Shown here one piece after another: positions 21,489 through 35,439 of a stretch of DNA of 64,000 bases. Positions within the stretch are counted from its first letter, which is position 1. Each line of letters begins with the position of its first letter. The DNA is from an uncultured Candidatus Saccharibacteria bacterium. Lineage in GTDB: Bacteria; Patescibacteriota; Minisyncoccia; Minisyncoccales; GWA2-38-27. The notes beneath the pieces were generated by a model that worked only from the letters and a program-made list of their open reading frames with translations, was not told the origin of the DNA and did no database searches. The stretch covers positions 72,235 through 136,234 of the forward strand of contig CAZSQP010000002.1 in NCBI GenBank assembly GCA_964609075.1, read 5' to 3'. A program made the position numbers and the translations under genes.

Positions 21489-22166
21489 ATGGCAAAGATA
21501 AAAGAAAAAGAAAAAGCAATAAAATTAAGGAGAAAAGGGCTTTCTTACAGAGAAATTTTAGAAGAAATTTCTGTATCTAAGTCGACGCTATCTTTATGGT
21601 TAAGAAGTGTTGGCTTAAGCAAAAAACAAAAGCAAAGATTAACGGAAAAGAAATTAGCAGCAGCAAAAAGAGGATGGGAAGCTTGCCGACAAAAAAGAAT
21701 TTTAATTACTAAGCAAATTAAAAATAAAGCTCGAGGAGAGATCGGAAAAATTAATAAAAAAGAGCTATGGTTAATAGGGGTTGCCCTTTATTGGGCTGAA
21801 GGAGATAAGGAGAGGAACGGAAGTTGCTTAGTAGGTTTAGGTAATTCAGACCCTTATTTAATACAGGTATTTTTAAAATGGCTTAGAGAAATATGCGAAA
21901 TTTCTGATGACGATATTTTTTTTAGAATATTCCTCCACGACAATAATAAAAGAAGACTAAAAGAAGTAAAAAAATATTGGTCACAAATTACGGGCTTTCC
22001 AATTACTGAATTTGATAGAATAACTTGGAAGAAGAATAAAATCAAAACTAAAAGAAAGAATATTGGTAAAAATTACTACGGATTGTTAAAGGTGTTTGTA
22101 AGAAAAAGCAGTAACTTTAATCGGAGGATTGAAGGATGGAAAGAAGGTATTTATAATGCCGGGTAG
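21489..22166 (+). CDS. HTH + LAGLIDADG-like (homing-endonuclease-type) protein
   Basis: N-terminal resolvase-type HTH (KGLSYREILEEISVSKSTLSLWLR), then LWLIGVALYWAEGDK and YLIQVFLKWL resembling a LAGLIDADG core. The last 10 nt overlap tRNA-Gln. Confidence 0.5.
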   Translation: MAKIKEKEKAIKLRRKGLSYREILEEISVSKSTLSLWLRSVGLSKKQKQRLTEKKLAAAKRGWEACRQKRILITKQIKNKARGEIGKINKKELWLIGVALYWAEGDKERNGSCLVGLGNSDPYLIQVFLKWLREICEISDDDIFFRIFLHDNNKRRLKEVKKYWSQITGFPITEFDRITWKKNKIKTKRKNIGKNYYGLLKVFVRKSSNFNRRIEGWKEGIYNAG

Positions 22167-22230
22167 TGTAATGGTAACACCCTAGATTTTGGCTCTAGTG
22201 ATCCTGGTTCGAGTCCAGGCCCGGCAGCCA
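22157..22230 (+). tRNA. tRNA-Gln (anticodon TTG), CCA encoded
   Basis: Hand-folded: acceptor TGCCGGG/CCCGGCA (U1-A72, typical of bacterial tRNA-Gln), D arm GTGT..ACAC, anticodon arm CTAGA-TTTTGGC-TCTAG, T arm CCTGG-TTCGAGT-CCAGG, discriminator G, CCA. Confidence 0.9.
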
Positions 22231-23865
22231 TCGTGCACGAATAGAGGCAATAGCCTCTATTTTTGCTTTATTTTGGGGCATTTTGGCTGGTTCTAACCCT
22301 ATGTATTCTTTTTCAAGAGCAGGATAGCCATTTCCTACCTCTGCAAACCACTCATTCGGTTCAATAGAGAGCTTTCCGTCTTTTATTATTGGCACTTTCC
22401 CTAATGCCATTGAAATTTCTTTCTTTAGTTCTAACCCACCCATCAAAAAGGCTTTTCTGGCGTAGGTGGCGAAGTTAAAGGTTCTTTCCGTTAGTTCCAG
22501 CCATCTTTCGGCTCGTGCTTCGGTTTCTCGCAGTTTTCCTTTCAACTGGCTAATTTTGGCTTGAAGGTCGTTTTTCTCTTTGATAAAAGTTTCGTCATCA
22601 ATCAACTGGCGGTATCTCATCTTGGTAAGTTCATCAAGTTCTTTTTGAGTTTCTACCAAAGTTTTGTGTTGCATTTCATAAACTTTAGTCCTGTCTTCAA
22701 TCTCTGTATCATTTTTCTTGTTTAGCCCTTCTAAAGCCCAGTTTAGAAATTCGGGGAGAATTGTGTATTTTTCAAGCTCTTTTTCAACCTGTAATTCCAG
22801 ATTGTCTTCTCTGACTACTTTTCTTTGCGTGCAATTTACTCGTCTTGTCCTTCTGGTGCAGTGATAATAGGTATATTCTTTAATTTCTTTCGTGCTTTTG
22901 ATAAGTTTCTTTTTTGTTTCGGCGGTATAAAGACAGCCGCACTCACCACACCTGATAAATCCAGTAAAAGCAAATTTGTGCGTTTTGGGTCTCGGTCTCC
23001 CTTTTCTGCCGAGAATTGTTTGCACTCGGTCATATTCCTCAAGAGTAATCATCGGCTCGTGCTTGCCTTCGTATTGCGTGCCGTAGTATTCAATAATCCC
23101 AGCATAAAAAACATTAGTGAAAATCTTGTAAATTCCGCTTCGGGATAGGGGCTTATCGCCATATCCCTTTTTCCTGAATTTTCTTGTTTTGAAACCCCAC
23201 TCATTATTGGCAATATCTAAAATCTTGGGCGGGGTGTAGTTGCCCGTAAGCATTAAATCCCACATTTTGCGGATAAGATTAAACCGCTCTGGGTCTTTGA
23301 TGATTGTTTTCTCTGCTTTGTCGTTTAGATAGCCGAGCGGGGCAAGATTGGGTTTCCATCCTTTTTGCAGTTTGCTTTCCGTGCCTCTTTTGACATTTTT
23401 TCTTAAATCCAAAATATACTGGTTAGCCATTCCGCTTTCAACATTAAAAAGTAGAACATTATCATCGGGAAGATACTGGCGGTCTATGGTTTGGATTGAC
23501 TTGAGTATTCCTTGCTGTAATAGCCAGCTTAACTTGCCGCTATCAATGGGGTTTCGGGTTAGTCGGTTTATTTGCCAGCATAAAATTCCGTCAGCCTCGC
23601 CGTCTTCAATCCGTTTTATCATTTCATCAAACAAAGGACGATTGTTTGGTTTCTTGGCTGTCTTTGCCTCTGTATAGGTTTTTTTAATATCCAAATTCAA
23701 ATCAGTGGCAAGCTGTTTTAGGCGATTGACTTGGTCGTCAATGGATTGCACTTGTCGGTCTTCGCTTTCCGATGATTTTCTGGCGTAAAGGAAGTATTTA
23801 ATTTTATTTACTTCTTGTCTCATATAACTCAAAGGGGCGGTCTGGTAGCCCAGTTGCTTTTCCAC
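22195..23865 (-). CDS. large serine recombinase (integrase)
   Basis: Resolvase-type N-terminus YARKSSESEDRQVQSIDDQ ... GILCWQINRLTRN, a recombinase domain, a zinc ribbon (CGECGCLYTAE...YYHC) and a coiled-coil. The ORF-track start is GTG; ATG 23823 (MRQEVNKIKYFLYARKSS) is an alternative. The last 11 codons are antisense tRNA-Gln sequence. Confidence 0.85.
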   Translation of the reverse strand: MEKQLGYQTAPLSYMRQEVNKIKYFLYARKSSESEDRQVQSIDDQVNRLKQLATDLNLDIKKTYTEAKTAKKPNNRPLFDEMIKRIEDGEADGILCWQINRLTRNPIDSGKLSWLLQQGILKSIQTIDRQYLPDDNVLLFNVESGMANQYILDLRKNVKRGTESKLQKGWKPNLAPLGYLNDKAEKTIIKDPERFNLIRKMWDLMLTGNYTPPKILDIANNEWGFKTRKFRKKGYGDKPLSRSGIYKIFTNVFYAGIIEYYGTQYEGKHEPMITLEEYDRVQTILGRKGRPRPKTHKFAFTGFIRCGECGCLYTAETKKKLIKSTKEIKEYTYYHCTRRTRRVNCTQRKVVREDNLELQVEKELEKYTILPEFLNWALEGLNKKNDTEIEDRTKVYEMQHKTLVETQKELDELTKMRYRQLIDDETFIKEKNDLQAKISQLKGKLRETEARAERWLELTERTFNFATYARKAFLMGGLELKKEISMALGKVPIIKDGKLSIEPNEWFAEVGNGYPALEKEYIGLEPAKMPQNKAKIEAIASIRARWLPGLDSNQDH

Positions 23866-23953
23866 GAGGGATTGGCTTCTGGCAAACCGCCCCTTAAAGG
23901 ACAGAAGCCGATAAAAAACTCGTGGATTTGTTGCAACTTTGGGCTACATCTAC

Positions 23954-23981
23954 ATTATAACGCTGTCTAAATTTTAAGCAA
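23954..23981 (-). promoter_or_regulatory. sigma70-type promoter for the recombinase gene
   Basis: The minus strand reads TTGCTT (23981-23976), 16 nt, TATAAT (23959-23954). Confidence 0.55.
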
Positions 23982-23998
23982 GCTCAATAAGGGGACAA

Positions 23999-24592
23999 CT
24001 ATTTTCCTAACATCATAACCATTTTTACCAAATCGTTATTTAATTTTTCATTCATTCTAATGACCCGTCTGTATTTTCTGGTCATTCTCCCATTATAGTA
24101 TTTTCTTTTTACTTCTTGTTCTGCTTTTTCTATGTCTGGGTAAGAAACTGAACAGCCTCTGAATTTACCACCTCTCAACTGGTCGGTGTAGCAAATATCG
24201 CCGCAGTGTCGGCAACCGAACCATTTGCCAATGCTGTAAATTACGCCAACCCGCCTGCCGCAGTATTGCCCATTCTTGGACAAAGGACATATAAACCAGT
24301 ATCTAACACCGCCGTAATTACAGGGAGTAGTCGTGAGGCTGACCTTATAATCCAAACTTTCTTTTTTACCGCTCCATTTGTCAGTGTGCGTGTATTGCAA
24401 TCTGATGTAATCGCCTTCGTCTCCGCCTATATTTACATTAAAGCCAATACTGCTTTCGTTGCCGCTTAATCCGTAAGTCCACTTGATACCGCCATATCTC
24501 CAACCACTCTCAAGATAGCCGTGCTTTTTGAGCCAAAAAATACTTAATCTATTGCTCCATTCTGCTTCTTGTTTTGCCATAATTTTTTTCAA
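23999..24592 (-). CDS. hypothetical Cys-rich (zinc-ribbon-like) protein
   Basis: 197 aa with CPLSKNGQYCGRRV...FGCRHCGDICY. The ORF-track start is TTG; ATG 24580 (MAKQEAEW) is an alternative. I cannot name a family. Confidence 0.6.
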   Translation of the reverse strand: MKKIMAKQEAEWSNRLSIFWLKKHGYLESGWRYGGIKWTYGLSGNESSIGFNVNIGGDEGDYIRLQYTHTDKWSGKKESLDYKVSLTTTPCNYGGVRYWFICPLSKNGQYCGRRVGVIYSIGKWFGCRHCGDICYTDQLRGGKFRGCSVSYPDIEKAEQEVKRKYYNGRMTRKYRRVIRMNEKLNNDLVKMVMMLGK

Positions 24593-24736
24593 AAACCCGC
24601 CGAAATCATTAGAGATTGTTAGAGGTTATTTTTGAAGTTGGGGATTAAATTTCCGCTTAAATAAAGGCAAATTTCTTATTTTATTGACCTTGAATAAAAC
24701 TCCATTTAATTCATTATTTTTGCGAAACGAACCCAG

Positions 24737-25273
24737 CTATTCTTTAACCCCAGAAACATCAACATCAATAGCCAGTGGAGCTGGTGGTTTTTCTCCCGCA
24801 CGGGCGGCTTGTATCCGTTGTAATTCGTGAAGGGCTTTATAAATACTTCTTTCAATAGATGTTTCATAGCGGAGTAATTTTTCCATATCATCATTAACAA
24901 TCATCGCTTTAATTTTCTTTTTCTTCTTTTGACTTTCTGGTTCTTCGTCTAAACCAAAACTAATTTCTTTATAATTTTTCCGCCACTCCATTGCGTTCTT
25001 TTCAACCTCTAAAGTCCTTCTAAGACGCCAGAAATTAGCGACAATTCTGTCAGCAAGCAACATTTCAAGCTCTCCTACTGGTTTCATTTCATTTCTTAGT
25101 CGTTTTCCAAGTTCAACAAGGCTCTGTTCGTCCTCTTTTTCCAATAATACCTCTTTACTCAACAGCCCGTGTTTTAAGGCATTGTATTTGCTTATTTCTT
25201 TGCCTTTATCTGTTTTTACCCCGCCGAGTTTGGCATTTTGGCGGTTAGCTTCTATTTGTTGTTGTGTCGTCAT
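24737..25273 (-). CDS. hypothetical protein
   Basis: 178 aa with N-terminal ANRQNAKLGGVKTDKGKEISKYNALKHGLLSK. It overlaps the upstream primase gene by 4 nt, so they form an operon. Confidence 0.6.
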   Translation of the reverse strand: MTTQQQIEANRQNAKLGGVKTDKGKEISKYNALKHGLLSKEVLLEKEDEQSLVELGKRLRNEMKPVGELEMLLADRIVANFWRLRRTLEVEKNAMEWRKNYKEISFGLDEEPESQKKKKKIKAMIVNDDMEKLLRYETSIERSIYKALHELQRIQAARAGEKPPAPLAIDVDVSGVKE

Positions 25274-27450
25274 AAGTTTGTATTATTTACCCCACCCCTC
25301 AACTCACTATTGTTTTTCTCTTTAGAGATAGTGAGCGAGGCGGTAGGATAGATTAACATTTTTCTTTTATCGCTTGGGTCTTGCTCTTGCATTATCAAGC
25401 CAGCAGTTTCCAGCATTGGAATGATTTGTTGCCGCAACTGCCAATCAGCGATAAATCGTCCATAAACCTGATAATGCTTTTGGATTATATCTTGACGGCT
25501 CAATCCCAACTCCCCAGTGATTTCTTCAAATCCTTCAGCCCTGTTTTTGTTTTTATCATCCCAAGCAGTTAAAATAACTTCCTGATAGAGATGGTAAATA
25601 TAGGGCGGCAGGTTAAGTTCTTGGCTTTCAGAGATTGCATTCCAAATTTTGAACGCTTCTTCAATGTCCTCATCGCTTGCCACAATAACCAAGCCGTCGT
25701 TTTTTCTGAACCACAGATTTAACAAAGCAAAAGATTTTATCAAAGAGATAAGCCGCCCGATGTCTCTTGAATGTCTGGGCTTGAGCATTTTGTTTTTCTT
25801 GAAAAATCTTTCTTCAATTTTCTCTGGCGAGCCGATTTTAATTTCTTTGACATTTTCTTGCTTAATTGCTCGTATCCTTTCTTTCAATAGTTTCCTTTCG
25901 GGGTTATCGTCCAGCCACTTTTGATAGGTGTCAGCGTCAGTTTCCTTTTTGATTTTCTCGTGGATTGCTTCCCTGATTTTTTCTTGGTTTGTCTCTGGGC
26001 TAAGCAATAAAAACCTTGTTGCTTCCTGTTCGTCAATTTTTAACCCAGCAGTGCAGAAAATTACTGACGGATAACCCCTTAACAAGACATTTTTAGTCTT
26101 TAATCCGAATTTCTGCGTTTTATCAGTGATTTTCAGTGATATTTCTTTTTTGTCGTGAGAAAGCAGAGGTCTTAGCCGTTCCAAGAGTTGAGTGTGCGGC
26201 TGGTCAAGAAAAATTAAAACCTTTCTGGACAAATCAACCAAATATCCTTTTTTCTCTTTTTGGTATTCTCCTATGTCGTGAAAAAAGGCGGTGGGAGAAC
26301 AATAGCCAATTTCAATAATGTCTTCTTCGGGGAACAGCCGAGCGATTTCGGTGGGGATATAAGACTTGCCAGTTGATGACGGAGCGTTGAAGCTGATATT
26401 AAACTGGGAGTTTTCTGTATAAGCAGAGAGTTCACATAAAAAAGTTATCAATTTATTTTCCTCGTCTTTTTTGATGGTCAGACCCAGTGTTTTGATGAGC
26501 TCTGATGAGGAGAGTGATTTGAATTGCGAGGTATCAATTTTTTCTGGATACTCTTTTGCGTATTTACCAAATAAATCATCGGGATTGCCGTTGAGTTTTA
26601 CAAAGTAATCGGTTATGTCGCCGCCTTCGCCGACTTCCTCTGGCAGTGTGATGATGTAGGTCTCATTTCCACCATTTTCCACCATTTTTGCCACTCGTTC
26701 AGCTCCTTTCTTGCCCGCCTCGTCATTGTCAAAGCAAATATAGATTTTGCTAACATTTGCTAACCTTTTGCACCACTCTTGCTTAAAGGTCATTGCTCCG
26801 TGCGTGGAAGTGATGGCTGGTATTCCTTTTGATAATAAAATCAATCTATCAAACTCGCCTTCGCAGGTTATAATTTTATTAGTGGCGGTTTTGAGCGTTT
26901 CCCAGCCATAGATTTGAGCTTCAATTCCTCTGGGGTAGGTTATTTTTTCATCGCCTTCATTCGGGTCTTGTCTTAGCTTAAAAAACACAAAATTCCCACC
27001 AATATCTTGAATGGGAATAGTAATCCACCATTTGCCGTAAAACTTGCCCCAACCGAGCTTAAAATCGCTTACAAGGGCGTCCGTAATGCCTCTGGCGTGC
27101 AGATATTGGCGAATATGGTCTGGAATGGCTTGATGACAGGTTTCTACCAGAGAAGTGTCAAATTTCGGATATTTTCGGATATTTTTCGTGGATTTTCGTG
27201 GATTTAGAGCAATGTCGTCTATGCTGTCGCCAAGATGTTCGGCAAGCGTTATGATGTTGCCTTTCTCCCCGCATTTCTTGCAATCGTATTGTCCAGTTTC
27301 AGTATCAAAGTAAAGATGTTTTTCATCGCTTCTGCTGTCGTCATCGCAGTTGTTAAATAGGCAACGGGTTATCAGTTCTCCATTTTGTTCTTTGAAAGGA
27401 ATGCCTTTGCGGGTTAGGTATTCTTTAATTGTAATGGTTTGTAATTCCAT
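25270..27450 (-). CDS. primase (zinc finger + TOPRIM) fused to a P-loop ATPase and a C-terminal winged-helix
   Basis: Cys cluster RCLFNNCDD...YDCKKCGEKG, TOPRIM ITCEGEFDRL / CFDNDEAGKKG, Walker A NAPSSTGKSY, Walker-B-like VLIFLDQPH, and a C-terminal wHTH-like region (LETAGLIMQEQDPSDKRKMLIYPT). Confidence 0.8.
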   Translation of the reverse strand: MELQTITIKEYLTRKGIPFKEQNGELITRCLFNNCDDDSRSDEKHLYFDTETGQYDCKKCGEKGNIITLAEHLGDSIDDIALNPRKSTKNIRKYPKFDTSLVETCHQAIPDHIRQYLHARGITDALVSDFKLGWGKFYGKWWITIPIQDIGGNFVFFKLRQDPNEGDEKITYPRGIEAQIYGWETLKTATNKIITCEGEFDRLILLSKGIPAITSTHGAMTFKQEWCKRLANVSKIYICFDNDEAGKKGAERVAKMVENGGNETYIITLPEEVGEGGDITDYFVKLNGNPDDLFGKYAKEYPEKIDTSQFKSLSSSELIKTLGLTIKKDEENKLITFLCELSAYTENSQFNISFNAPSSTGKSYIPTEIARLFPEEDIIEIGYCSPTAFFHDIGEYQKEKKGYLVDLSRKVLIFLDQPHTQLLERLRPLLSHDKKEISLKITDKTQKFGLKTKNVLLRGYPSVIFCTAGLKIDEQEATRFLLLSPETNQEKIREAIHEKIKKETDADTYQKWLDDNPERKLLKERIRAIKQENVKEIKIGSPEKIEERFFKKNKMLKPRHSRDIGRLISLIKSFALLNLWFRKNDGLVIVASDEDIEEAFKIWNAISESQELNLPPYIYHLYQEVILTAWDDKNKNRAEGFEEITGELGLSRQDIIQKHYQVYGRFIADWQLRQQIIPMLETAGLIMQEQDPSDKRKMLIYPTASLTISKEKNNSELRGGVNNTNL

Positions 27451-28114: not shown

Positions 28115-30205
28115 CTACTGGTATTCGTCGTAGACTTCTGGGGTTTGTCTTTTATATTCTTCTTCTATTCCTAAATCATCTTTGTCTTTATTGGCATTAG
28201 CTTTTTCTTTTTTGTCTGGCGGCGGTATCAGAGTAATTTTAATTTTATAAGAATTGCCGCTTTTTTCTGTTGATGAGTGATATGGGTAAAAGGGGTCATA
28301 ATCAAGTAAGAAGTAGTTTTGAAGTGCTTTTGCCAGCAATTCTTTTTGTTTTTTATATTTATCTCTTGCTTGTGCGTCTTTGATTGTCAATTCACCATTG
28401 ACCTGTGCCAGCACTTTCATAAATGTCCACGCTTCGCTTGGATTTGGGTTTTTACCTCGCCCGACCATTCCCATTTCTTTGTAGTCAGCATTATGTTTGA
28501 ATTGTTTTACTTGGATAAAAACATTTTCGTCATCCTCAAATTTAATAGTGAAATTTTCCCATTTCGTTCCTGCTGGCAATTTATAAGGAAATTGATTTTT
28601 TCTTTCCTTTTTTTTGGTTTGAGCGATTGCTTTTAGTCCGTCTTGCAATCCTTCTACTTCCATTCTGCCGCCAACGATTTGGATTTTTTGTATCCGTTCG
28701 TGAGTATGGGATATTTTTGGGTCATATTCCCCAAGTAGTTTTTCGGTAGCTAATTTTTTAAGTGCGGGTATTTTAGATTTGACGAGCTTCGCTTTTATAA
28801 AAACATTGTCTTTGTCTGTCCATTCTTGTTTATCGTTGCTTAGCTCTTTTATGGTAAAAAATCCCTCTTTCTCTAATGCCAGCATTGTCCTTAAAACATT
28901 GATATTCGGGTCTCGTATCTCGTTAAATTTGATAACCAGTATTTCGTTTTCAAATTGATTGTAAAGGTTTGCGATATAGTTGAGCAATACTTCCCTTTGC
29001 TTTTTGTAGGCATAATAATTATGAGAGACGCCTCGCAAATAAGAGGGTGTCTCAAGGTGTTTGGTATCGGGATAAAATTCTTTTACCGCCTCAATCTTTT
29101 CTGCGTTGACTTTATTGGCGATAAATTCACTGATTTCTTCGTCAACATCTTTTTTTAATCTTTTTTCATCCAATATCTCAATATCAAAACCATCATCAGC
29201 TTCTACCTTATGCGGATTATTATCTAAATCTCTGATTAAGTTCCAATTAAAGGCAATTTCTTGATGAAAGCGAGGGTCGGTTTCAATTAAAATATCCTCT
29301 GGGGTAGTATTAGCACCGAAGAAAATAATATCGGTAATAAATAAATCCCAAAGAGAATAACAAATTTGTTCTATTGTGTTGTTGTTAAATGATAATTCGG
29401 TTATTGGGTGAGGTAGGTCGTCTCTCCAAGTTTCAACTAAAATTTTCTTTTTTAGATACAAATCTAAATCATTGTTTTGCCCAACCTCTTTACTTATTTT
29501 TTTGACTTTGTAATTTTTTAGAGTAAAGCCATCATATTTTAATAACTTATTAAATTTGTCTTCGTATGTTTTGGCGATTTCCTCGTTTCCATTGTGCATT
29601 AAAGGATGGCTTGCTTCTTCAATAATCTTAAAGAGGATTTCTTGATTTTTTGGATTTGGCGAGGTGGCAAGTGCTATAAAGACATCATAGACCATCCGCC
29701 ATTTTGTTTGAGGATATTCAATGAGTTTTTTATCAACTCCACAATCGGTTAAAAAATTTATAAGATTTGTTCCTGTTTCTAAATTACCGATTTCTCTGGC
29801 AATAAGTTCCAGAGACTTCGGCTTTATAACTGATTGTGAAATTTTGGTTTCTGGAACAGCATTTTTATTTTCCGAGTAGCTACTCCCGCTTTCGTAGAGA
29901 CGATAAAGTTCATCAAATTTGGATTGGCGAATTGCTAAGAGATACGCCGTTGGCGGTGCAAATAAATTATCATCCACAAAAAATCCAGTTGGTTCTAAGT
30001 CCAAAGCCTTCCATTCTTTTAATTTATTGAGTAGTTTCCTTTGAGCTTCAGCCGACGGCAAGTTATCATCGGTCTTTCTTGAGTATTTCGGTGGTTTTCT
30101 TAAAGTAAACTCTACCTTTTCTCCTTTAGGGGTGGAGAGCTGTTCTTTTCTTATTTCTTGCAAAATCCACCAAATCTCTTGATTAAATTTTTCCTCTGGG
30201 GTCAT
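28115..30205 (-). CDS. large orphan protein (696 aa), function unknown
   Basis: A long uninterrupted ORF with its own terminator. I could find no catalytic or nucleotide-binding motif by eye. The C-terminal tail is Lys- and acid-rich. Confidence 0.7.
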   Translation of the reverse strand: MTPEEKFNQEIWWILQEIRKEQLSTPKGEKVEFTLRKPPKYSRKTDDNLPSAEAQRKLLNKLKEWKALDLEPTGFFVDDNLFAPPTAYLLAIRQSKFDELYRLYESGSSYSENKNAVPETKISQSVIKPKSLELIAREIGNLETGTNLINFLTDCGVDKKLIEYPQTKWRMVYDVFIALATSPNPKNQEILFKIIEEASHPLMHNGNEEIAKTYEDKFNKLLKYDGFTLKNYKVKKISKEVGQNNDLDLYLKKKILVETWRDDLPHPITELSFNNNTIEQICYSLWDLFITDIIFFGANTTPEDILIETDPRFHQEIAFNWNLIRDLDNNPHKVEADDGFDIEILDEKRLKKDVDEEISEFIANKVNAEKIEAVKEFYPDTKHLETPSYLRGVSHNYYAYKKQREVLLNYIANLYNQFENEILVIKFNEIRDPNINVLRTMLALEKEGFFTIKELSNDKQEWTDKDNVFIKAKLVKSKIPALKKLATEKLLGEYDPKISHTHERIQKIQIVGGRMEVEGLQDGLKAIAQTKKKERKNQFPYKLPAGTKWENFTIKFEDDENVFIQVKQFKHNADYKEMGMVGRGKNPNPSEAWTFMKVLAQVNGELTIKDAQARDKYKKQKELLAKALQNYFLLDYDPFYPYHSSTEKSGNSYKIKITLIPPPDKKEKANANKDKDDLGIEEEYKRQTPEVYDEYQ

Positions 30206-30273: not shown

Positions 30274-30495
30274 ATGTTAAGTAAAAAATCAATGACAGAA
30301 ACAGCGAAAAACAAAGAAGAAATACCAGAATTGCTCACCCTTCAAGAAGCGTGTGATATTTTGAAGTGCCACCCTAACACTTTACGCCAGTGGGACAGGA
30401 AAGGCATTTTGGTTGCTGTTCGTTTTGGCGAAAGAAAAGACAGGCGTTATCGCAAAGAGGATATTTTGAAGTTATTAAACCAAAAGAAAAGATGA
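30274..30495 (+). CDS. excisionase/MerR-type HTH DNA-binding protein (candidate recombination directionality factor or regulator)
   Basis: LLTLQEACDILKCHPNTLRQWDRKGILVAVRFGERKDRRYRKEDI matches the HTH_17/excisionase pattern. Confidence 0.7.
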   Translation: MLSKKSMTETAKNKEEIPELLTLQEACDILKCHPNTLRQWDRKGILVAVRFGERKDRRYRKEDILKLLNQKKR

Positions 30496-30517: not shown

Positions 30518-30699
30518 TGCCTAACCCTCGTTGAGGTATGGCATTAAAAAACCTACCACAGGATAGAGAGCTCGTCGTCAGAGCACCTGTGGTAGGTCAT
30601 ATCCCGAAAGGGGTATGGGTGGAGCAATCCATCGCTGGCGGCGAGCTTTGTGGTTTTACCGCCAGAGGCATAAATTAAATAACAAAACCTACCACAGGT
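30518..30699 (+). promoter_or_regulatory. hairpin-dense structured leader upstream of mod (candidate RNA switch, or ori/iteron region)
   Basis: Perfect 12-bp hairpin acctaccacagg (30551-30562) / cctgtggtaggt (30586-30597). GAAA-loop hairpin at 30598-30617, GCAA-loop hairpin at 30618-30633, and ctggcgg/ccgccag at 30635-30665. A second direct copy of aaaacctaccacagg lies at 30684-30698, ending 1 nt before the ATG. Confidence 0.55.
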
Positions 30700-32562
30700 A
30701 TGCCAAAAAAATTACAATTACAATCAATTGAAAAAGCCAAAGGCAGACCAATGCTTCAATGGGCAGGTAAAAAGCCTTTGGACAAAATAGAATACTATCC
30801 AGCCCAAGAAAAAGAAGTTTATGGCGACAAAAACTCCAAAGATTTTAATAAACTTTTCTGGGGCGACAACCTTCAAGTTTTAGCCCATCTCTTAAAAGAA
30901 TATAGGGGCGAGATTGATTTAATTTATATTGACCCGCCTTTTGATAGCAAAGCCGAGTATGTGAAAAAAGTAAAAATCAGGGGTGAAAAAATAGAAGGCG
31001 AACAGCATAGTTTGTTAGAAGAAAAACAATATACTGACATCTGGGAGAAAGATGAGTATTTGCAGTTTATGTATGAGCGGCTTTTAATTATGCGTGAACT
31101 TCTTGCTGATACGGGGAGTATTTATTTACATTGCGATTGGCACAGGGGGGCGTTTTTAAGGATGATAATGGATGAAGTTTTTGGCGAGGGAAATTTCAAA
31201 AATGAAATTGTTTGGCATTATATGACTTATCAGGGGCAGGTTGAAAAATACTTCCCTCGTAAGCACGACCATATTCTTTTTTATACCAAAACTAAAGAGT
31301 ATGACTTTAAGTTGTTAAAAGATAAGGAATTTGAAAAGAATATAGACTATAAACGCTGGCATAGATATTTGATAAATGGAAATGAAATCAGGGGTAATAA
31401 CTATCCAAAAGATGACACTCGTTTTGATGTATTTATAAATAAATGGCGTGAAAAAAATAAAAGAGAGCCGACTAAAGATGATGTAATTTATCGTCTGGAA
31501 GGATACACAATTGATAGTGTCTGGAACATAAAAGCCGAAGACCCCAAAAGTTTAACAAGAACGGGCTATCCAACCCAAAAGCCAGCAGAGCTTATAGAAA
31601 GAATTATTGAAGCGTCATCAAAAGAGGGCGATATTGTAGCTGATTTTTTTGTTGGCTCTGGCACTACTCCAGCCGTTGCTCAAAAACTCGGCAGACGCTG
31701 GATTGCCTGCGATATTAACTTGGGAGCAATACAAACTACCGCCAAACGGCTTAATCAAATCATTCAAAAGCAATCAAAAGAAAAAGCTAAAGATTTTAAG
31801 GGCATACACGCTTTCAAAATCTACAATGTCAACGATTACGATATTTTCAAAAATGAACTGGAAGCAAAAGAAATCGTAATGGAGATGTATGGTGTAGAGC
31901 CGATAAAGCGAAGTTATTTTGACGGCGTTCTGGATAACAACTTTGTAAAAGTAATGCCGATGAACCGAGTATTGAATAAGTTGGATATTAAGACGGCGTT
32001 GAAAAATGTTGAAGACAAGATTGACACTTTCTCGGTTAAGAAAAAATCAAAATCTGGCGAGCCAGTTTATGAGGAAGGCGTTTTGATTATTTGTTCTGGA
32101 ATGGAGCTTGATGTGTCAGATTATTTGAAGAAAGAAAACAAAACAGGCGTGAAAGTAGAAATCCGAGATATTTTAACTGACAAGAAAAACCTCATTTTCA
32201 AAAAGAAGCCCGAAGCGAAGATTGAAGTGAAAGCTAAAGACAAGAAGCTGTCAGTTGAACTCAAAGAGTTTTATTCACCAATTTTGATGAGAAAGTTAGA
32301 AATTGAAAACGCCAGAACACTTAAAAAAGAGTATCAAGCCAAAGTAAAAGATTTTAAGCAAATCATAGATAGCGTGGCTATTGATATTGATTATGACGGC
32401 AAACTCTTTAATGCCGAAATTACTGATTTGCCGAGTAAAAAAGAAATAATCAAAGGCAAATACGATTGGGATTACAAGCAAAAGGGCAAATATGCCGTAG
32501 CTGTAAAAATCGTTGATGTGCTTGGTGAGGAATACTTTGAAACCTTTGAGGTATCAGCATAA
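30700..32562 (+). CDS. mod: type III restriction-modification Mod subunit (beta-class N6-A/N4-C DNA methyltransferase)
   Basis: Motif IV DLIYIDPPFDS lies N-terminal to motif I DIVADFFVGSGTTPAVAQKLGRRWIACDIN (beta-class order). A Res-type helicase-nuclease gene follows immediately. Confidence 0.85.
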   Translation: MPKKLQLQSIEKAKGRPMLQWAGKKPLDKIEYYPAQEKEVYGDKNSKDFNKLFWGDNLQVLAHLLKEYRGEIDLIYIDPPFDSKAEYVKKVKIRGEKIEGEQHSLLEEKQYTDIWEKDEYLQFMYERLLIMRELLADTGSIYLHCDWHRGAFLRMIMDEVFGEGNFKNEIVWHYMTYQGQVEKYFPRKHDHILFYTKTKEYDFKLLKDKEFEKNIDYKRWHRYLINGNEIRGNNYPKDDTRFDVFINKWREKNKREPTKDDVIYRLEGYTIDSVWNIKAEDPKSLTRTGYPTQKPAELIERIIEASSKEGDIVADFFVGSGTTPAVAQKLGRRWIACDINLGAIQTTAKRLNQIIQKQSKEKAKDFKGIHAFKIYNVNDYDIFKNELEAKEIVMEMYGVEPIKRSYFDGVLDNNFVKVMPMNRVLNKLDIKTALKNVEDKIDTFSVKKKSKSGEPVYEEGVLIICSGMELDVSDYLKKENKTGVKVEIRDILTDKKNLIFKKKPEAKIEVKAKDKKLSVELKEFYSPILMRKLEIENARTLKKEYQAKVKDFKQIIDSVAIDIDYDGKLFNAEITDLPSKKEIIKGKYDWDYKQKGKYAVAVKIVDVLGEEYFETFEVSA

Positions 32563-32566
32563 CTTT

Positions 32567-35098
32567 ATGGAAAATCCTTTTTTACAACATATCCAGCAGA
32601 AAGTCGCTCTCTGGCGAGACGGCAATTATAAGGGTGCAGAAAAAGAAACGCTGAATATCTTGACCCACATCAAACGAGTGGGCTTTTTGCATAAACCACA
32701 GGTAGAAGCTCTGGAAACTTATATTTACTTAAAAGAGGTTGTCGGCAACAAGTCGTCTTTGGAAGTGTTTAGGTCGCTTTTTGAAAATAAAAAAGATATG
32801 CTTCTTGGTTTAGGCATTTCTAAAGAACAAGCATTTGATTTAATGGACAACGAAGAAAAGATTGCCGAATTGATGGAAGACCGCTTTGGCGTTTCCGATT
32901 ACCCTAATCAAGTTTACGCTCTCACAATGGGAGCGGGCAAAACGATTTTAATGGCAGTGATGATGTTGTATGATTTTGTCCTTTCGTTTTATCACCCAGA
33001 AGACAAGCGATTTGCTAAAAACGCTTTGGTGTTTGCTCCCGACACGACAATTATTGAGAGCTTGAAAGAAATAAAAACCTTTGATTATACACGGGTAATC
33101 CCGAAAGAATATCAAAACATTCTTTTGAACATTAAATATCATTATCTTGAAGATGTCGCCACGCCTTTGTCGCCAATCGGCAATTACAATGTTATTATTT
33201 CAAACTCCCAGAAAATCATCTTAAAGACCCAGCGAAATCACAATAATACTCAACGATTATTTTCCGATTGGCAGTATATGACAAAGCGAGAGATAGAAAA
33301 CAGGCGTTTGCAAGCCATAAGGCAATTAACAGATTTGGTCGTTTTTGTAGATGAAGCCCATCATTCTTACGGCAAGACGCTGGAAGGCACGCTAAAGAAA
33401 ACCCGCCAGACCATTAACTATATCCATCAAGAGGGCAAGACGCCTGTCGTTGGCGTGATAAATCTTACTGGCACGCCGTATGTAAATAATAAAATGATTG
33501 CTGATGTTGTTTGTCATTTTGGATTAAAACAGGGCATTGAAAAAGGCATTTTGAAGCAGGTAAGATTTTTTGAATATAGCAAAGTGAGAACAGAAAAGTT
33601 TATTGAAGATGTGGTAGATAAGTTCTGGAGTGAATACGGAGAAAATCGGCTTGAAGGACGCTTGCCAAAGATAGCTTTTTACTCTGCCAGCATTGATGAT
33701 TTACAGAAGGATTTGAGACCAAAACTGGAAAAGATTTTAGCCCAGCGAAAAATCGCTCTTGATAAGATTTTAGAATATCACACCGAAGCCGAAGAAAATA
33801 AAGATGAGTTTATTGTCGTAGACACAATTGATAGCAGGAAGCAGTTTATTCTGCTCGTTGGTAAAGGAACAGAGGGTTGGAATTGTCGGTCGCTTGTTGC
33901 CTGTGCTTTATACAGGAGACCGAGAAGTGCTATTTTTGTTTTGCAATCTTCAACTCGTTGTTTGCGGAGCATTGGCGACAATTCAACGCTGGCTTCAATT
34001 TTCCTTTCCGAAGAAAACTATCGCATTTTAGACAAAGAACTTAGAAATAACTTTGCCACTGATATTGAAGAATTGTCAGCCCAAGACCAGAAATCTATTG
34101 AGCACACTCTTAAAATAGAAAAAAAGAAGAAATTAAAAATCAGAAAGACCCTAAAGGAAATCTTGGCGGTTCAAAATCAAGATTTAGATAAAATTAAAAT
34201 TGATTTCAAAACATTCAATCCAGAGAATTATTTATCTTTTATTGCCGAAGGCGGGATATTTTTGGATGAAAGCAAAGAAGCTGGCTATAAAGAAGCGAGA
34301 ATAAAGAAAGAAGTGAGAGAGATGGGCGATTTTACTTTTTACGAGATTATTGAAATTATCAACCGCTATACTCATTTGTCTTGTTTGGCTATTGAGCAGA
34401 TTTTGGAAAACAATGAATTATCAAAAGAAAACATAATCAAAAGAGTGAATAAAAATCCAGCATTTTTATTGTTTATTACGCAGAACATTTTAGCTGGGGC
34501 TTATCAATATCAGGAGAAGACCGAAACCATTGAAGAAGAACTGGAGCTGGCGAAACTATATCCCTTCAAAATCAGCATTGAACAGGGCAGAAATATCCTC
34601 GTGATTTACAAAGAGCAAATGGAGAAGGCATACGGCAAGAGCCGTTTAGGATTTCACATTAACCCTTATAATTTTGATAGCTCTGACGAAAAAGACCTGT
34701 TTAAGTATTTGCGGGATGTGTTGGATAAAGACGAGGCAATTGTTGATGTTTATTTTACAGGGGGAGCAACCGACCCTACCCACAATGATTTCTATTTTGA
34801 GTATTACAGCCCAGAGAATAAACGGATTGCCAGATATTTCCCAGATTTTTTGGTTGAGACGACAAAAGGCAGGTTTTTAGTTGTTGAGGTGAAGTCCAAC
34901 CGAGAAAAAGAGGGCTACGAGAAAAACAAGCAGGAATACAATGGCAAAGTAGAAAACCTTTTTAATGAGGTTTTTGCCAAAGAAATCGGTTTTAAGGAGT
35001 TCCAGCGAGCAAACAAAAATTTTGAGTATCGCATTATCTTTGACGCCTCACTTCAAAAACGCCAGCAGGAATTATTGGAAAGTATAAGAAAAATTTGA
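32567..35098 (+). CDS. res: type III restriction-modification Res subunit (SF2 helicase + PD-(D/E)xK nuclease)
   Basis: Walker A ALTMGAGKTILMA, DEAH box VVFVDEAHHSYG, motif III LTGTP, and C-terminal nuclease PDFLVET...FLVVEVKS. I prefer ATG 32567 (MENPFLQH), 5 nt after the mod stop, to the ORF-track start 32513. Confidence 0.85.
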   Translation: MENPFLQHIQQKVALWRDGNYKGAEKETLNILTHIKRVGFLHKPQVEALETYIYLKEVVGNKSSLEVFRSLFENKKDMLLGLGISKEQAFDLMDNEEKIAELMEDRFGVSDYPNQVYALTMGAGKTILMAVMMLYDFVLSFYHPEDKRFAKNALVFAPDTTIIESLKEIKTFDYTRVIPKEYQNILLNIKYHYLEDVATPLSPIGNYNVIISNSQKIILKTQRNHNNTQRLFSDWQYMTKREIENRRLQAIRQLTDLVVFVDEAHHSYGKTLEGTLKKTRQTINYIHQEGKTPVVGVINLTGTPYVNNKMIADVVCHFGLKQGIEKGILKQVRFFEYSKVRTEKFIEDVVDKFWSEYGENRLEGRLPKIAFYSASIDDLQKDLRPKLEKILAQRKIALDKILEYHTEAEENKDEFIVVDTIDSRKQFILLVGKGTEGWNCRSLVACALYRRPRSAIFVLQSSTRCLRSIGDNSTLASIFLSEENYRILDKELRNNFATDIEELSAQDQKSIEHTLKIEKKKKLKIRKTLKEILAVQNQDLDKIKIDFKTFNPENYLSFIAEGGIFLDESKEAGYKEARIKKEVREMGDFTFYEIIEIINRYTHLSCLAIEQILENNELSKENIIKRVNKNPAFLLFITQNILAGAYQYQEKTETIEEELELAKLYPFKISIEQGRNILVIYKEQMEKAYGKSRLGFHINPYNFDSSDEKDLFKYLRDVLDKDEAIVDVYFTGGATDPTHNDFYFEYYSPENKRIARYFPDFLVETTKGRFLVVEVKSNREKEGYEKNKQEYNGKVENLFNEVFAKEIGFKEFQRANKNFEYRIIFDASLQKRQQELLESIRKI

Positions 35099-35110
35099 TA
35101 TAATTTTATT

Positions 35111-35262
35111 GGAGTAGTGAGAGTTGGTGTTCATCGGCTTTTGCCGATGACAAGATTGTGTAATAAGTCCGCCATCCGCCTTGTGCGGTGAATTTGCCCG
35201 AAAGGGTGAAGGGTGCGGTGAAAAGCAATAGTGGCTCACGGGCATACCAAGAGTGCTACTCC
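35111..35262 (+). ncRNA. 152-nt closed multi-helix RNA-like element in the res 3' UTR (class unknown; RNase P RNA-like helix order)
   Basis: Terminal helix ggagtag (35111-17) / ctactcc (35256-62). Second helix ttggtgt (35124-30) / ataccaa (35244-50). Hairpin tcatcggc-tttt-gccgatga (35131-50). GAAA-loop hairpin at 35196-35207. Possible long-range gtccg (35167-71) / cgggc (35239-43). A terminator follows directly. Confidence 0.5.
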
Positions 35263-35268
35263 AACAAA

Positions 35269-35294
35269 AAGCTCCCGTTTCTGGGAGTTTTTTG
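35269..35294 (+). terminator. rho-independent terminator of the mod-res unit
   Basis: agctccc gtttct gggagtt followed by ttttg. Confidence 0.7.
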
Positions 35295-35439
35295 TTATAA
35301 TAAATAGTGAGTAGCAGGGTAGGGTAAGTTTATGCGTTAGTATGCATTAGCGTATCCTTTCAAATCTGGGATGTAAATATACTCATTTTGTCGCTGGATA
35401 ATGGTTCTAACATTGTCCACGATGGTCAGCAAAAAAGAT

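What the first reader, a model, noticed from the sequence alone, without database searches (positions are those of the whole stretch)
22157..35420. Integrated element of about 13 kb at tRNA-Gln whose serine-recombinase ORF terminates inside the tRNA
Between dnaX/tRNA-Gln and the S8 protease lies a block with a different composition: 25/60 G+C hand-counted at 26701-26760, against 18/60 at 61-120. Its gene content is purely accessory: a large serine recombinase, a Cys-rich orphan, a primase-ATPase-wHTH fusion, small orphans, a 696-aa orphan, an excisionase-type HTH and a type III R-M system. The recombinase stop codon (22195-22197) lies in the 3' strand of the tRNA anticodon stem, so its last 11 codons (..LPGLDSNQDH) are antisense tRNA sequence. 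The element/chromosome junction is therefore within or flush with the tRNA 3' half. An imperfect match to that tRNA segment occurs near the opposite end: 22186-22210 (attttggctctagtgatcctggttc) against 35385-35407 (attttgtcgctggataatggttc), about 19 matches with 2 gaps. That level of similarity is what attL and attR of a serine integrase might share. If the host is a CPR-type bacterium, an integrative element carrying its own replication module and an R-M system is uncommon and worth describing.
Basis: partly seen in the sequence, partly recalled or inferred. Interest (0 to 1): 0.7.

Follow-up and report, generated by a model that had tools for sequence, protein, structure and literature searches.

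The report
Integrase gene that ends inside tRNA
A 13.2-kb mobile element sits at the very 3' end of a tRNA-Gln gene, and its serine integrase has its own attachment site inside its reading frame, so insertion swaps the enzyme's tail for antisense tRNA; thousands of relatives in CPR bacteria do the same at many tRNAs.

Summary
tRNA-Gln lies at 22157-22230 (+). A 556-aa large serine recombinase lies at 22195-23865 (-), and its last 12 codons are antisense tRNA.

The 13 kb is an insertion. A relative with 85% identical dnaX (L083) has dnaX, tRNA-Gln and then the window's genes from 36.7 kb onward, with no element between them.

The true junctions share only CAGC, at 22225-22228 and 35427-35430, which are tRNA positions 71-74. 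The element is therefore 13,202 bp.

The phage-type site (attP) lies inside the integrase ORF. Joining the two ends restores a 30-residue native tail, WLTIVDNVRTIIQRQNEYIYIPDLKGYANAY. The same kind of tail is found in a circular 10.4-kb sibling contig (L115) and in two other attP-form contigs.

In relatives the Trp codon TGG is the antisense of the tRNA CCA in 52 of 58 tRNA-fused loci. The targets include Gln, Asn, His, Ser, Trp, Met, Asp, Ala and Phe.

A T-loop-like motif lies 5 bp closer to the centre in attB than in attP, as in known serine integrases. The integrase 3' coding region also encodes an antisense terminator for the tRNA.

LOOT RNA is a conserved component of these elements. I found no description of this family in the papers searched.

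The parts
22157..22230 (+). Host tRNA-Gln(UUG). This is the attB target. Its last bases, CCA at 22228-22230, are now supplied by the element as the antisense of the integrase Trp codon.
   Evidence: ARAGORN. Rfam tRNA match at 65.3 bits. The empty-site relative L083 has the same tRNA ending ...CCCGGCAG|CAGTATT, with no encoded CCA.
22225..22228 (.). attL core CAGC, which is tRNA positions 71-74. The crossover lies here. By the symmetry of the reconstructed attP, the central dinucleotide is most likely CA, positions 71-72.
   Evidence: This is the only sequence shared by the two junctions. The attP inverted repeat CACGATGG/CCATCGTG is centred on CTGA.
22239..22262 (+). Intrinsic-terminator hairpin plus T-run on the tRNA-sense strand. 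It is embedded antisense in the integrase codons ..KAKIEAIASI...
   Evidence: Terminator scan. A matching hairpin was found in 39 of 62 loci and the P-arm consensus is shared.
22195..23865 (-). Large serine integrase in its integrated-state form. Residues up to ..IRARW are element-encoded. The codons of the tail LPGLDSNQDH lie largely in host tRNA antisense sequence, since the crossover falls in the first of them. Gene callers start the protein at M15 (542 aa, P0001).
   Evidence: Pfam Resolvase 1.5e-17, Zn_ribbon_recom 2.4e-11, Recombinase 1.7e-7. PDB A118 integrase CTD 5.8e-9. More than 5,000 homologs.
23999..24592 (-). Cys-rich 197-aa protein. It is a conserved element gene of unknown function.
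   Evidence: tblastn hits next to int in 30 related loci. No Pfam, PHROG or PADLOC family.
24737..25273 (-). 178-aa conserved element protein of unknown function.
   Evidence: Hits in 8 related loci at the same position.
25270..27450 (-). Replication protein. It has an N-terminal Zn finger, a DnaG-type Toprim primase and a C-terminal P-loop region, with a possible winged HTH.
   Evidence: Pfam Toprim_2 5e-11. PHROG DNA primase and primase/helicase. 57-74% identical in related elements among the hits listed, 34 hits in all.
27473..27670 (-). 65-aa protein. After int, it is the most widely conserved element gene.
   Evidence: 61 tblastn hits across the 80 loci, up to 91% identity.
27675..27968 (-). 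DUF5659 protein.
   Evidence: Pfam 1.9e-11. 43 tblastn hits.
28115..30205 (-). 696-aa conserved element protein of unknown function. It is modular, and its N- and C-terminal parts are conserved separately.
   Evidence: Only a weak AbiJ_NTD3 match, below the cut-off.
30274..30495 (+). HTH_17/MerR-type 'excisionase-like' protein. It is a candidate regulator or directionality factor.
   Evidence: Pfam HTH_17 3.9e-12. PHROG excisionase families.
30518..30633 (+). LOOT RNA, immediately downstream of the HTH_17 gene.
   Evidence: Rfam RF03000 at 85.7 bits (gathering score 46.4). It holds the same position and strand in 12 of 15 related elements scanned.
30700..32562 (+). Cargo: type III-like DNA methyltransferase (mod).
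   Evidence: Pfam N6_N4_Mtase 5.8e-51. PADLOC MTase_III 5.6e-67.
32513..35098 (+). Cargo: ResIII-type helicase/nuclease (res). The real start is probably downstream of 32513.
   Evidence: Pfam ResIII 3.7e-8. NCBIfam restriction endonuclease family 2.7e-28, below the cut-off. 91% identical in L034 and 80% in circular L115.
35110..35296 (+). Candidate structured RNA of about 150 nt with its own terminator, carried by the element.
   Evidence: MFE -80.5 kcal/mol, z = -6.98. No Rfam family. A 92.7% identical copy lies next to attP in L132.
35337..35426 (-). Displaced native C-terminal tail of the integrase (the P' arm and beyond): TIVDNVRTIIQRQNEYIYIPDLKGYANAY*. It is an open frame that rejoins int on excision.
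   Evidence: Translation. It matches the tails of intact integrases in L115, L132 and L031, and the far-end remnants in L001, L005, L013, L046 and L078.
35427..35430 (.). attR core CAGC. Host DNA resumes to the right, starting AAAAAAGATTAG.., then the S8 protease terminator.
   Evidence: The tetranucleotide profile is host-like from 35.2 kb onward.

Best explanation
Window positions about 22,227 to 35,428 are a 13,202-bp integrative, self-replicating element. It carries no capsid or conjugation genes, so it is plasmid-like.

It belongs to a very large family of elements in CPR/Patescibacteria that insert at the extreme 3' end of tRNA genes by means of a large serine integrase (LSR).

The element's attP lies inside the integrase ORF, about 30 codons before its native stop. 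The P arm is the coding sequence ..A-S-I-R-A-R-W. The Trp codon TGG is the antisense of the tRNA CCA end. The crossover falls in the next 2-4 bp, at tRNA positions 71-74. The P' arm encodes the native tail, L-T-IVDNVRTIIQRQNEYIYIPDL...

Integration (attP x attB) therefore has four consequences:
1. It leaves the host tRNA body intact and gives it an encoded CCA.
2. It places an element-encoded intrinsic terminator, written antisense in the int codons, right behind the tRNA.
3. It replaces the integrase's 30-residue native tail with a short peptide translated from antisense tRNA.
4. It parks the native tail at the far end of the element, from where excision restores it.

The host half-site B' is the acceptor 3' strand, the T stem and the T loop. 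The T-loop antisense motif TCGAACC sits 5 bp closer to the centre than the similar TTAGAACC motif in P'. That is the attB/attP geometry of known LSRs (zinc-ribbon-domain motif shift). It explains how integrases about 75-80% identical use many different tRNAs. The distal motif is universal in tRNAs, and target choice is probably set mainly by the central bases.

Shown here: the insertion, the boundaries, the attP form, the family-wide register and the motif geometry.

Inferred: the exact central dinucleotide, which protein domain reads which motif, any function of the tail swap, and the roles of HTH_17 and LOOT RNA.
For: - Empty site. L083 (dnaX 85% identical) has dnaX, tRNA-Gln(ttg), dihydroorotase-like gene, Zincin, EF-P, fmt ... 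murC, aspS. This is the same order as window 36.7-47 kb, and nothing lies between the tRNA and the dihydroorotase-like gene.
- Composition. The tetranucleotide step coincides with the boundaries.
- LSR identity.
- Family. More than 5,000 homologs. The top 120 are 74-100% identical, and about 110 of them carry tRNA-antisense or very short tails after the conserved W.
- In 80 genomic loci, 56 have an opposite-strand tRNA overlapping the int 3' end. TGG equals CCA exactly in 52 of 58 tRNA-fused loci. 53 of 62 anchorable loci have TCGAAC at +19..24.
- The tRNA body is host DNA. The 96%-identical int of L085 is identical in DNA up to TGGCTGCCGGGC and then follows a different tRNA-Gln(ctg) in a different neighbourhood.
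- Far end. Window 35282-35433 is homologous to the far ends of six related elements. It encodes, on the minus strand, the native tail seen in intact integrases.
- attP form. L115 is a 10,383-bp circle (88-bp terminal overlap) with int, o65, DUF5659, an o696-like gene, xis, LOOT, mod (74%) and res (80%), and no host genes. Its int ends WLRTVNNVRTIIQQQNEYIYIPDLRIYASA. L132 and L098 join DNA like window 35103-35423 directly to DNA like window 22226 onward.
- attP is an inverted repeat, CACGATGG-CTGA-CCATCGTG.
- The 5-bp motif shift matches the published LSR model (PMC3783163).
- Terminator.
- Tail codons show many synonymous differences between elements: 113 synonymous against 170 non-synonymous differing codons. 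This is a crude measure.
Against: - No reads are available, so excision or circularisation of this particular copy is not shown.
- The attP forms are from relatives whose matching DNA stretches are 74-93% identical to the window's. None is from this element.
- The central dinucleotide is inferred from symmetry and from a 4-bp overlap. One locus (L049) has attL TGGTTC against attR TGGTTT, which would place it one base to the left or reflects later mutation.
- The empty-site relative also lacks the flanking o225 and S8 protease genes. The site is therefore variable beyond the element, and the original attB of this host is reconstructed and was not observed.
- Five intact int+P' junctions sit in longer contigs (L031, L033, L038, L081, L082). 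Intact junctions are therefore not always free circles, and tandem arrays or other arrangements are possible.
- Assigning the RD and ZD domains to the motifs rests on analogy with the A118 integrase. The two proteins align only over residues 225-428.
- Whether the tail swap has any functional effect is unknown. Tails translated from tRNA vary from 2 to over 100 residues.
Confidence: 0.87

Rival explanations
1. It is a classical tRNA-targeting island that crossed over inside the tRNA (anticodon stem or 3' half). The element supplies a replacement 3' half, and the displaced, diverged original half lies at 35385-35407.
For: The ORF stop lies in the anticodon stem. Many islands driven by tyrosine integrases work this way (general knowledge). 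L013 and L087 do show 20-23-nt repeats of tRNA 3' ends near such sites.
Against: The proposed match is at chance level, and no tRNA 3' copy is present in the 64 kb. Nearly identical integrases are fused to different tRNA bodies, with identity ending in the acceptor stem. attP-form contigs join window 35423 to window 22226, i.e. at the CCA end. In L013 the 23-nt repeat lies outside the real attR.
Confidence: 0.03
2. This is a fixed, no longer mobile remnant. The island entered long ago, and the integrase is now decaying or domesticated (for example as an invertase or regulator). The overlap with the tRNA is genome compaction.
For: No reads show excision. The integrated-state integrase lacks its native tail. 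The flanks (o225, S8 protease) differ from the empty-site relative, which suggests some time has passed since insertion.
Against: The int ORF is intact and 96% identical to a copy in another host at another tRNA-Gln. The 30-codon native tail at the far end is still open and conserved. The core repeats are intact, and sibling elements exist as circles. The register TGG = CCA is kept in 52 of 58 tRNA-fused loci, which compaction would not produce.
Confidence: 0.08
3. This is a prophage or phage satellite that uses a serine integrase.
For: Serine integrases are typical of temperate phages. An excisionase-like gene and a primase are present.
Against: Pfam and PHROGs find no capsid, portal, terminase, tail or lysis genes in any ORF. 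The 10.4-kb circular sibling has no room for them. The integrase has no relatives in the IMG/VR viral contigs. A satellite lifestyle cannot be excluded, because four conserved proteins are orphans.
Confidence: 0.05

Closest known systems
Phage large serine integrases with defined att architecture (Listeria A118/LI integrase; also Bxb1, phiC31, SPbeta)
   Same: The domain set is the same: Resolvase, recombinase domain, and zinc ribbon with coiled coil. attP is an inverted repeat around a central dinucleotide. The distal motif is 5 bp closer to the centre in attB than in attP (PMC3783163). There are hybrid attL and attR sites with only a few shared bases.
   Different: attP lies inside the integrase ORF. 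The target is the 3' end of tRNA genes, and the B' arm is generic tRNA sequence. Close relatives use at least 9 different tRNA species. The protein has about 100 extra C-terminal residues with no counterpart in A118. The carrier is a small replicative element and not a phage.
SSV1-type archaeal integrases (tyrosine recombinases whose attP lies within the int gene; review PMC8371274, listed; the details here are from general knowledge)
   Same: The attachment site is inside the integrase ORF, the target is a tRNA gene, and integration alters the integrase gene.
   Different: The enzyme is a serine and not a tyrosine recombinase. Only the last 30 codons are exchanged, so all three recombinase domains stay on one ORF, whereas SSV1-type integration splits the gene in two. 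The host is bacterial (CPR). The shared core is 4 bp and not about 44 bp of tRNA.
Integration-dependent immunity of mycobacteriophages (attP inside the repressor gene; integration changes the protein's C-terminus). Recalled from general knowledge and not checked here.
   Same: Integration rewrites the 3' end of an element gene, which produces different protein isoforms in the free and the integrated state.
   Different: There the gene is the repressor and the recombinase is a tyrosine integrase. Here it is the integrase itself. No functional consequence has been shown here.
Tycheposons and similar tRNA-targeting replicative islands (10.1101/2020.12.28.424599)
   Same: The layout is modular: integrase, primase/replication module and variable cargo, inserted at tRNA genes. 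A minority of tycheposons carry large serine recombinases.
   Different: Tycheposons are found in marine cyanobacteria. 910 of 937 use tyrosine recombinases, and they are drawn with partial tRNA genes alongside the full-length ones (figure legend). No attP-in-ORF arrangement or TGG = CCA register is mentioned in the passages read.

Membership tests
Large serine recombinase (serine integrase) | N-terminal resolvase catalytic domain with the Ser nucleophile motif | tested here: met
   Pfam Resolvase 1.5e-17 over residues 25-169. The motif YARKSSESEDRQ is present.
Large serine recombinase (serine integrase) | C-terminal recombinase domain plus zinc-ribbon domain | tested here: met
   Pfam Recombinase 1.7e-7 and Zn_ribbon_recom 2.4e-11. 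The A118 integrase CTD (4kis) matches residues 225-428 at E = 5.8e-9.
Large serine recombinase (serine integrase) | Short att sites: inverted-repeat half-sites around a central dinucleotide, with attB distal motifs shifted 5 bp inward relative to attP | tested here: met
   attP is CACGATGG-CTGA-CCATCGTG. TGGAC occupies the same position in P' and B'. TCGAACC is at +19..25 in B' against TAGAACC at +24..30 in P'. The model is from PMC3783163. This is a sequence-level test only.
Large serine recombinase (serine integrase) | Catalyses attP x attB recombination; needs a directionality factor for attL x attR | not testable with these tools
   Indirect evidence only: an empty site (L083), occupied sites, and circular or attP forms (L115, L132, L098).
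Classical tRNA-gene genomic island (tyrosine integrase type) | Tyrosine recombinase | tested here: not met
   No Phage_integrase domain in any ORF of the element. The recombinase is of the serine type.
Classical tRNA-gene genomic island (tyrosine integrase type) | Direct repeat of a 15-60-nt tRNA 3' segment at both ends | tested here: not met
   No second copy in the window with up to 3 mismatches. The shared core is 4 bp.
SSV1-type 'attP within int' elements | attP inside the integrase ORF, so that integration disrupts the gene | tested here: inconclusive
   attP is inside the ORF, but only the last 30 codons are exchanged, and all three recombinase domains stay on a single open reading frame.
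SSV1-type 'attP within int' elements | Tyrosine recombinase of the SSV family | tested here: not met
   The enzyme is a serine recombinase.
Prophage | Virion structural and packaging genes | tested here: not met
   Pfam and PHROGs find none. No relatives in IMG/VR. Four orphan proteins remain unassigned.
ICE / IME | Relaxase, coupling protein or T4SS genes, or an oriT | tested here: inconclusive
   No such Pfam domains were found. The orphan proteins were not modelled, and oriT cannot be tested.
LOOT RNA (Rfam RF03000) | Match to the covariance model above the gathering score | tested here: met
   85.7 bits against a gathering score of 46.4, over the full model length.
Type III restriction-modification system (cargo) | Mod methyltransferase plus a Res helicase-nuclease encoded together | tested here: inconclusive
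   Mod matches PADLOC MTase_III at 5.6e-67. Res has a ResIII helicase domain but no PADLOC REase_III match, and only a weak PD-(D/E)XK-like hit.

The most novel reading that the evidence does not exclude
These CPR elements may use integration as a protein-level switch. The free (circular) state makes an integrase with a conserved 30-residue tail (..VRTIIQRQNEYIYIPDL..YANA). The integrated state makes an isoform whose tail is translated from antisense tRNA. This difference in stability or coiled-coil control would bias the enzyme towards integration or excision.

The family may also have a generic way to retarget among tRNAs. The T-loop and CCA end would serve as a universal half-site, and only the central bases of attP (and with them codon 2 after the Trp) would need to change.

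LOOT RNA would be the element's own regulatory RNA.
Probability: 0.3. Interest if true: 0.85.

Novelty: new variant of a known kind. Interest (0 to 1): 0.7.

Why it matters
- Mobile elements of CPR/Patescibacteria are poorly known. This family has thousands of members (more than 5,000 integrase homologs at E <= 1e-20) and carries defence cargo. It appears to be a major integrative element of these reduced genomes.
- It shows a serine integrase whose attachment site is written inside its own gene, in register with the tRNA CCA end, with an antisense terminator in the same codons. This is an extreme case of overlapping coding and DNA-site information.
- It suggests how a serine integrase can be retargeted among many tRNA genes. 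That is relevant to the engineering of programmable integrases.
- It gives LOOT RNA, an orphan RNA motif, a consistent genomic context.
- It explains a recurrent annotation oddity: 'recombinase family protein' ORFs with tails such as ..RWLPGxDSNx that run into tRNA genes, and contigs that break there.

Tried and rejected
- I searched the window for a displaced tRNA 3' half by exact and mismatch patterns, repeat finder and local alignment. Nothing was found.
- A first regex for a native tail hit 44830 (-), 'IDVWDVFRT'. I rejected it. It lies out of frame in a small Zn-ribbon ORF, beyond core host genes (EF-P, fmt, murC), and its spacing differs from the family motif.
- I looked up the exact 556-aa product and found it not on record, because gene callers start at M15.
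- An IMG/VR scan for integrase relatives returned nothing.
- P0037/L081 was suspected to be a circle. There is no terminal overlap, and a second o696-like gene follows int, so it is probably a tandem or larger arrangement.
- I considered whether the S8 protease (35462-36634) belongs to the element, because the empty-site relative lacks it. I rejected this. attR lies at 35427-35430. No related element carries the gene. The tetranucleotide profile there is host-like.
- A first script to anchor the junction by a hairpin regex failed, and I replaced it with protein-alignment anchoring.
- An Rfam search at permissive E-value on 35050-35470 gave only sub-threshold chance hits.
- Literature searches for a description of this family found none. 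The LOOT source paper gives no context in its main text, and no supplement is held.

Full report
**1. The observation**

ARAGORN and Rfam place tRNA-Gln(UUG) at 22157-22230 on the plus strand. The ORF at 22195-23865 on the minus strand encodes 556 aa with Resolvase (1.5e-17), Recombinase (1.7e-7) and Zn_ribbon_recom (2.4e-11) domains. Its closest solved relative is the A118 serine integrase C-terminal domain (E = 5.8e-9). Its stop codon lies inside the tRNA.

The minus strand reads ..CGA TGG CTG CCG GGC CTG GAC TCG AAC CAG GAT CAC TAG. The tail WLPGLDSNQDH is therefore antisense tRNA, and TGG (Trp) is the antisense of CCA.

The computed contrast is modest in G+C (38.1% against 35.8%) but sharp in tetranucleotide usage. 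The correlation with the host profile is 0.79-0.85 for the three chunks covering 22.0-35.2 kb, against 0.93-0.99 elsewhere.

The gene content matches the description.

The proposed att similarity (22186-22210 against 35385-35407) is not significant. Many places in the window score as well. No second copy of the tRNA 3' part exists in the window.

**2. It is an insertion**

The closest available relative by dnaX (85% identity) is L083. It carries dnaX, tRNA-Gln(UUG), a dihydroorotase-like gene, Zincin_1, EF-P, fmt... murC and aspS. That is the order of window 36.7-47 kb, and only 80 nt separate the tRNA from the next gene. The promoter region upstream of that gene aligns with window ~36690-36770.

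The 13 kb is therefore absent from a close relative. That relative also lacks the 225-aa ORF at 21489-22166 and the S8 protease at 35462-36634, so the neighbourhood is variable beyond the element.

In L083 the tRNA ends ..CCCGGCAG followed by CAGTATT, so no CCA is encoded there.

**3. The overlap is a family design**

The integrase has more than 5,000 homologs at E <= 1e-20. The best 120 are 74-100% identical and come mostly from Patescibacteria/CPR assemblies.

Nearly all share ..(A/T)S(V/I)RA(R/H)W and then diverge. The tails are of the type L[PR]GxDSN[QPL].., which is the translation of the antisense acceptor stem and T arm (DSN = GAC TCG AAC = antisense T loop). Others stop within a few codons.

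In 80 loci from species-representative genomes, 56 have an opposite-strand tRNA overlapping the int 3' end. The tRNAs are Gln(CUG and UUG), Asn, His, four Ser species, Trp, Met, Asp, Ala and Phe. Several 'misses' are tRNAs that ARAGORN cannot call. L009, for example, has a group I intron in the fused tRNA.

TGG coincides exactly with the tRNA 3' end in 52 of 58 tRNA-fused loci. In 53 of 62 loci that could be anchored by protein alignment, TCGAAC lies at +19..24 from the T of TGG.

**4. Where the junctions are**

A 96%-identical integrase (P0002; L085 and L086) sits in another host context (ftsX, ftsE, prfB) at tRNA-Gln(CUG). Its DNA is identical to the window up to TGGCTGCCGGGC and then follows that host's own tRNA. 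The tRNA body is therefore host DNA, and the junction is at the acceptor/CCA end.

Window 35282-35433 is homologous to the far ends of related elements in L041, L005, L001, L013, L046 and L006. Read on the minus strand from 35432, it gives LL-TIVDNVRTIIQRQNEYIYIPDLKGYANAY*. The same motif follows the conserved W in integrases that are not fused to a tRNA, for example L031 RWRGIVNDVRTIIEK.. and L038 RWQALLDDFRTFDW... It is also found at the far ends of integrated elements in L001, L005, L013, L046, L048, L049 and L078.

Comparing the two junctions on the plus strand:
- attL: ..GTCCAGGCCCGGCAGCCATCGTGCACG..
- attR: ..GTCCACGATGGTCAGCAAAAAAGATTAG..

They share only CAGC, at 22225-22228 and 35427-35430. 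The element is therefore 13,202 bp.

**5. The attP form exists**

I scanned JGI metagenome contigs with a degenerate pattern for an uninterrupted junction, TTCGTRCA-N3-TGGC-N18-TTAGAA. It found 51 stretches.

L115 (10,471 bp) has an 88-bp terminal overlap, so it is a 10,383-bp circle. It carries int, a 376-aa gene, o65, DUF5659, an o696-like gene, the HTH_17 gene, LOOT RNA, mod (74% identical to the window's) and res (80%). It carries no host genes. Its integrase is intact across the junction and ends ..SIRAHWLRTVNNVRTIIQQQNEYIYIPDLRIYASA*. Joining the window's two ends gives ..SIRARWLTIVDNVRTIIQRQNEYIYIPDLKGYANAY*.

In L132 and L098, DNA 84-85% identical to window 35103-35423 is directly contiguous with DNA 75-76% identical to window 22226-23964. 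This independently fixes both boundaries.

The tail codons differ between elements by many synonymous changes: 113 synonymous against 170 non-synonymous differing codons over 24 codons in 21 pairs. This is a crude measure. The tail stays open in integrated copies, as expected if elements regularly pass through the free state.

**6. Architecture of the sites**

The reconstructed attP (int-sense strand) is ..TCTATTCGTGCACGATGG CTGA CCATCGTGGACAATGTTAGAACC... It contains an inverted repeat, CACGATGG/CCATCGTG (10 of 11 when extended), around CTGA. By symmetry the central dinucleotide is TG, which is tRNA A72-C71. The 4-bp overlap GCTG is consistent with this. One locus (L049) would fit better one base to the left.

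The host half-site B' is CCGGGCCTGGACTCGAACC: the acceptor 3' strand, the T stem and the T loop.

P' and B' share TGGAC at the same distance from the centre. The distal motif is TCGAACC at +19..25 in B' and TAGAACC at +24..30 in P'. More distant relatives even have TTCGAAC in P'. This 5-bp inward shift of the distal motif in attB is the feature described for A118/LI and other serine integrases, where the zinc-ribbon domain reads it (PMC3783163).

The host trailer arm of this window also contains TTAGAAAC at about the attB distance. This last point is suggestive only.

Inference: the distal motif and its distance from the 3' end are universal in tRNAs, and the central bases differ by tRNA (CTG for Gln, CTC for Asn, CGG for Ser, CA(C/G) for Trp, GGY for His). 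Retargeting may therefore need little more than a change of the attP centre, which also changes the codon after Trp.

**7. A terminator written in the integrase**

On the tRNA-sense strand, 22239-22262 forms the hairpin GAATAGAGGC-AATA-GCCTCTATTT followed by TTGCTTTATT. On the other strand the same bases encode ..KAKIEAIASI... The family consensus AAtAAaGcaaAAAcaGAggcttT.gcctCt.TtcgT.Cac..TGG shows that the T-run, the hairpin and the P arm are all conserved.

Integration removes the tRNA's own downstream sequence, and the element replaces it with a terminator. This terminator also shields int from convergent transcription. That role is inferred. A promoter-like site (TTGAAG-17-TATAAT) ends at the tRNA start.

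**8. The rest of the element**

The gene order is int, o197 (Cys-rich), o178, primase, o65, DUF5659, o696, HTH_17 (opposite strand), LOOT RNA, cargo. This order recurs across the loci, and the cargo varies. The cargo is a type III-like mod/res pair here and in L034, L025, L045, L009 and L115. It is a type IIG or type I-like system in L081 and L085.

No virion or conjugation genes were detected, and IMG/VR has no relatives of the integrase. The element is best described as an integrative, self-replicating, plasmid-like element that carries defence cargo. How it moves between cells is unknown.

LOOT RNA (RF03000) lies immediately downstream of the HTH_17 gene, on the same strand, in the window and in 12 of 15 related elements scanned. 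I found no published context for this motif in the texts available.

**9. Comparison with known systems and novelty**

The enzyme is a bona fide large serine recombinase, and the att geometry follows the published model.

Relative to characterised systems, the combination of features differs:
- attP lies inside the integrase ORF.
- The TGG = CCA register is fixed.
- The crossover is at tRNA positions 71-74, with no tRNA duplication.
- A generic tRNA half-site is used by close relatives at nine or more tRNA species.
- A terminator is embedded in the coding sequence.

The nearest concepts are SSV1-type archaeal elements (a tyrosine integrase gene split by its own attP), integration-dependent immunity in mycobacteriophages (integration changes a repressor's C-terminus; from general knowledge), and tycheposons.

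Four literature searches found no description of this CPR family. The library lacks many subscription papers, so prior description cannot be excluded.

I rate it a new variant of a known kind.

**10. What remains open**

- Activity of this particular copy.
- The exact central dinucleotide.
- Whether the tail swap matters. Tails ending ..YANA or ..YASA invite a degron hypothesis, but this is pure speculation.
- The directionality factor.
- The roles of LOOT RNA and of the 35110-35296 RNA.
- The meaning of intact int+P' junctions inside long contigs.
- The meaning of extra tRNA-3'-end repeats near some sites (L013, L087).

Noticed in passing
window 30518-30633 (+); also L022, L012, L024, L081, L034, L006, L115, L112, L085, L013, L005, L001: LOOT RNA (Rfam RF03000), an orphan RNA motif, lies directly downstream of the HTH_17 'excisionase-like' gene on the same strand. 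This holds in the window and in 12 of 15 related elements scanned, including the circular one. It appears to be a standard component of this element family.
   Followed up: partly
window 35110-35296 (+); L132:3316-3505: A candidate structured RNA of about 150 nt, with a 10-bp closing helix and its own terminator, lies between res and the element end. MFE is -80.5 kcal/mol (z = -6.98). It matches no Rfam family. A 92.7% identical copy lies next to an intact attP in L132.
   Followed up: partly
window 22239-22262 (+): An intrinsic terminator for the tRNA is encoded antisense within the integrase's last conserved codons. The hairpin plus T-run is conserved across the family.
   Followed up: yes
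L087:1984-2205; L013:3289-3360: Extra copies of the last 20-23 nt of the target tRNA lie downstream of the tRNA. There are two in L087, at a site with no integrase within the 250 nt of contig that follow the tRNA. There is one in L013, inside a pseudo-tRNA just outside attR. They may be scars of other elements or secondary attB sites. This is unexplained.
   Followed up: no
L009:11654-11955 (-): A group I intron (Rfam, 51 bits) lies inside the tRNA that is fused to the integrase 3' end. This explains why ARAGORN misses the tRNA there and why the ORF tail is very long. It is consistent with PMC13011429 on tRNA introns in Patescibacteria.
   Followed up: partly
L031, L033, L038 (contigs of 64-636 kb); L101/L081:11707-14297: Intact integrase plus P' junctions occur inside long contigs. 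In L101 a second o696-like gene follows int. This suggests tandem arrays of elements, or integration by another route.
   Followed up: no
window 21489-22166 (+) and 35462-36634 (-): A 225-aa HTH protein gene overlaps the first 10 nt of tRNA-Gln. An S8 protease with a membrane tail flanks the element on the other side. Both are absent from the empty-site relative L083, so the tRNA neighbourhood is a variable spot independent of the element.
   Followed up: partly
window 52001-53000 and 59001-60000: There are local G+C spikes (0.466 and 0.485, against about 0.35 background). The 48.4-52.8 kb chunk has a slightly deviant tetranucleotide profile (0.93). Rfam finds no RNA family there at the gathering threshold.
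   Followed up: no
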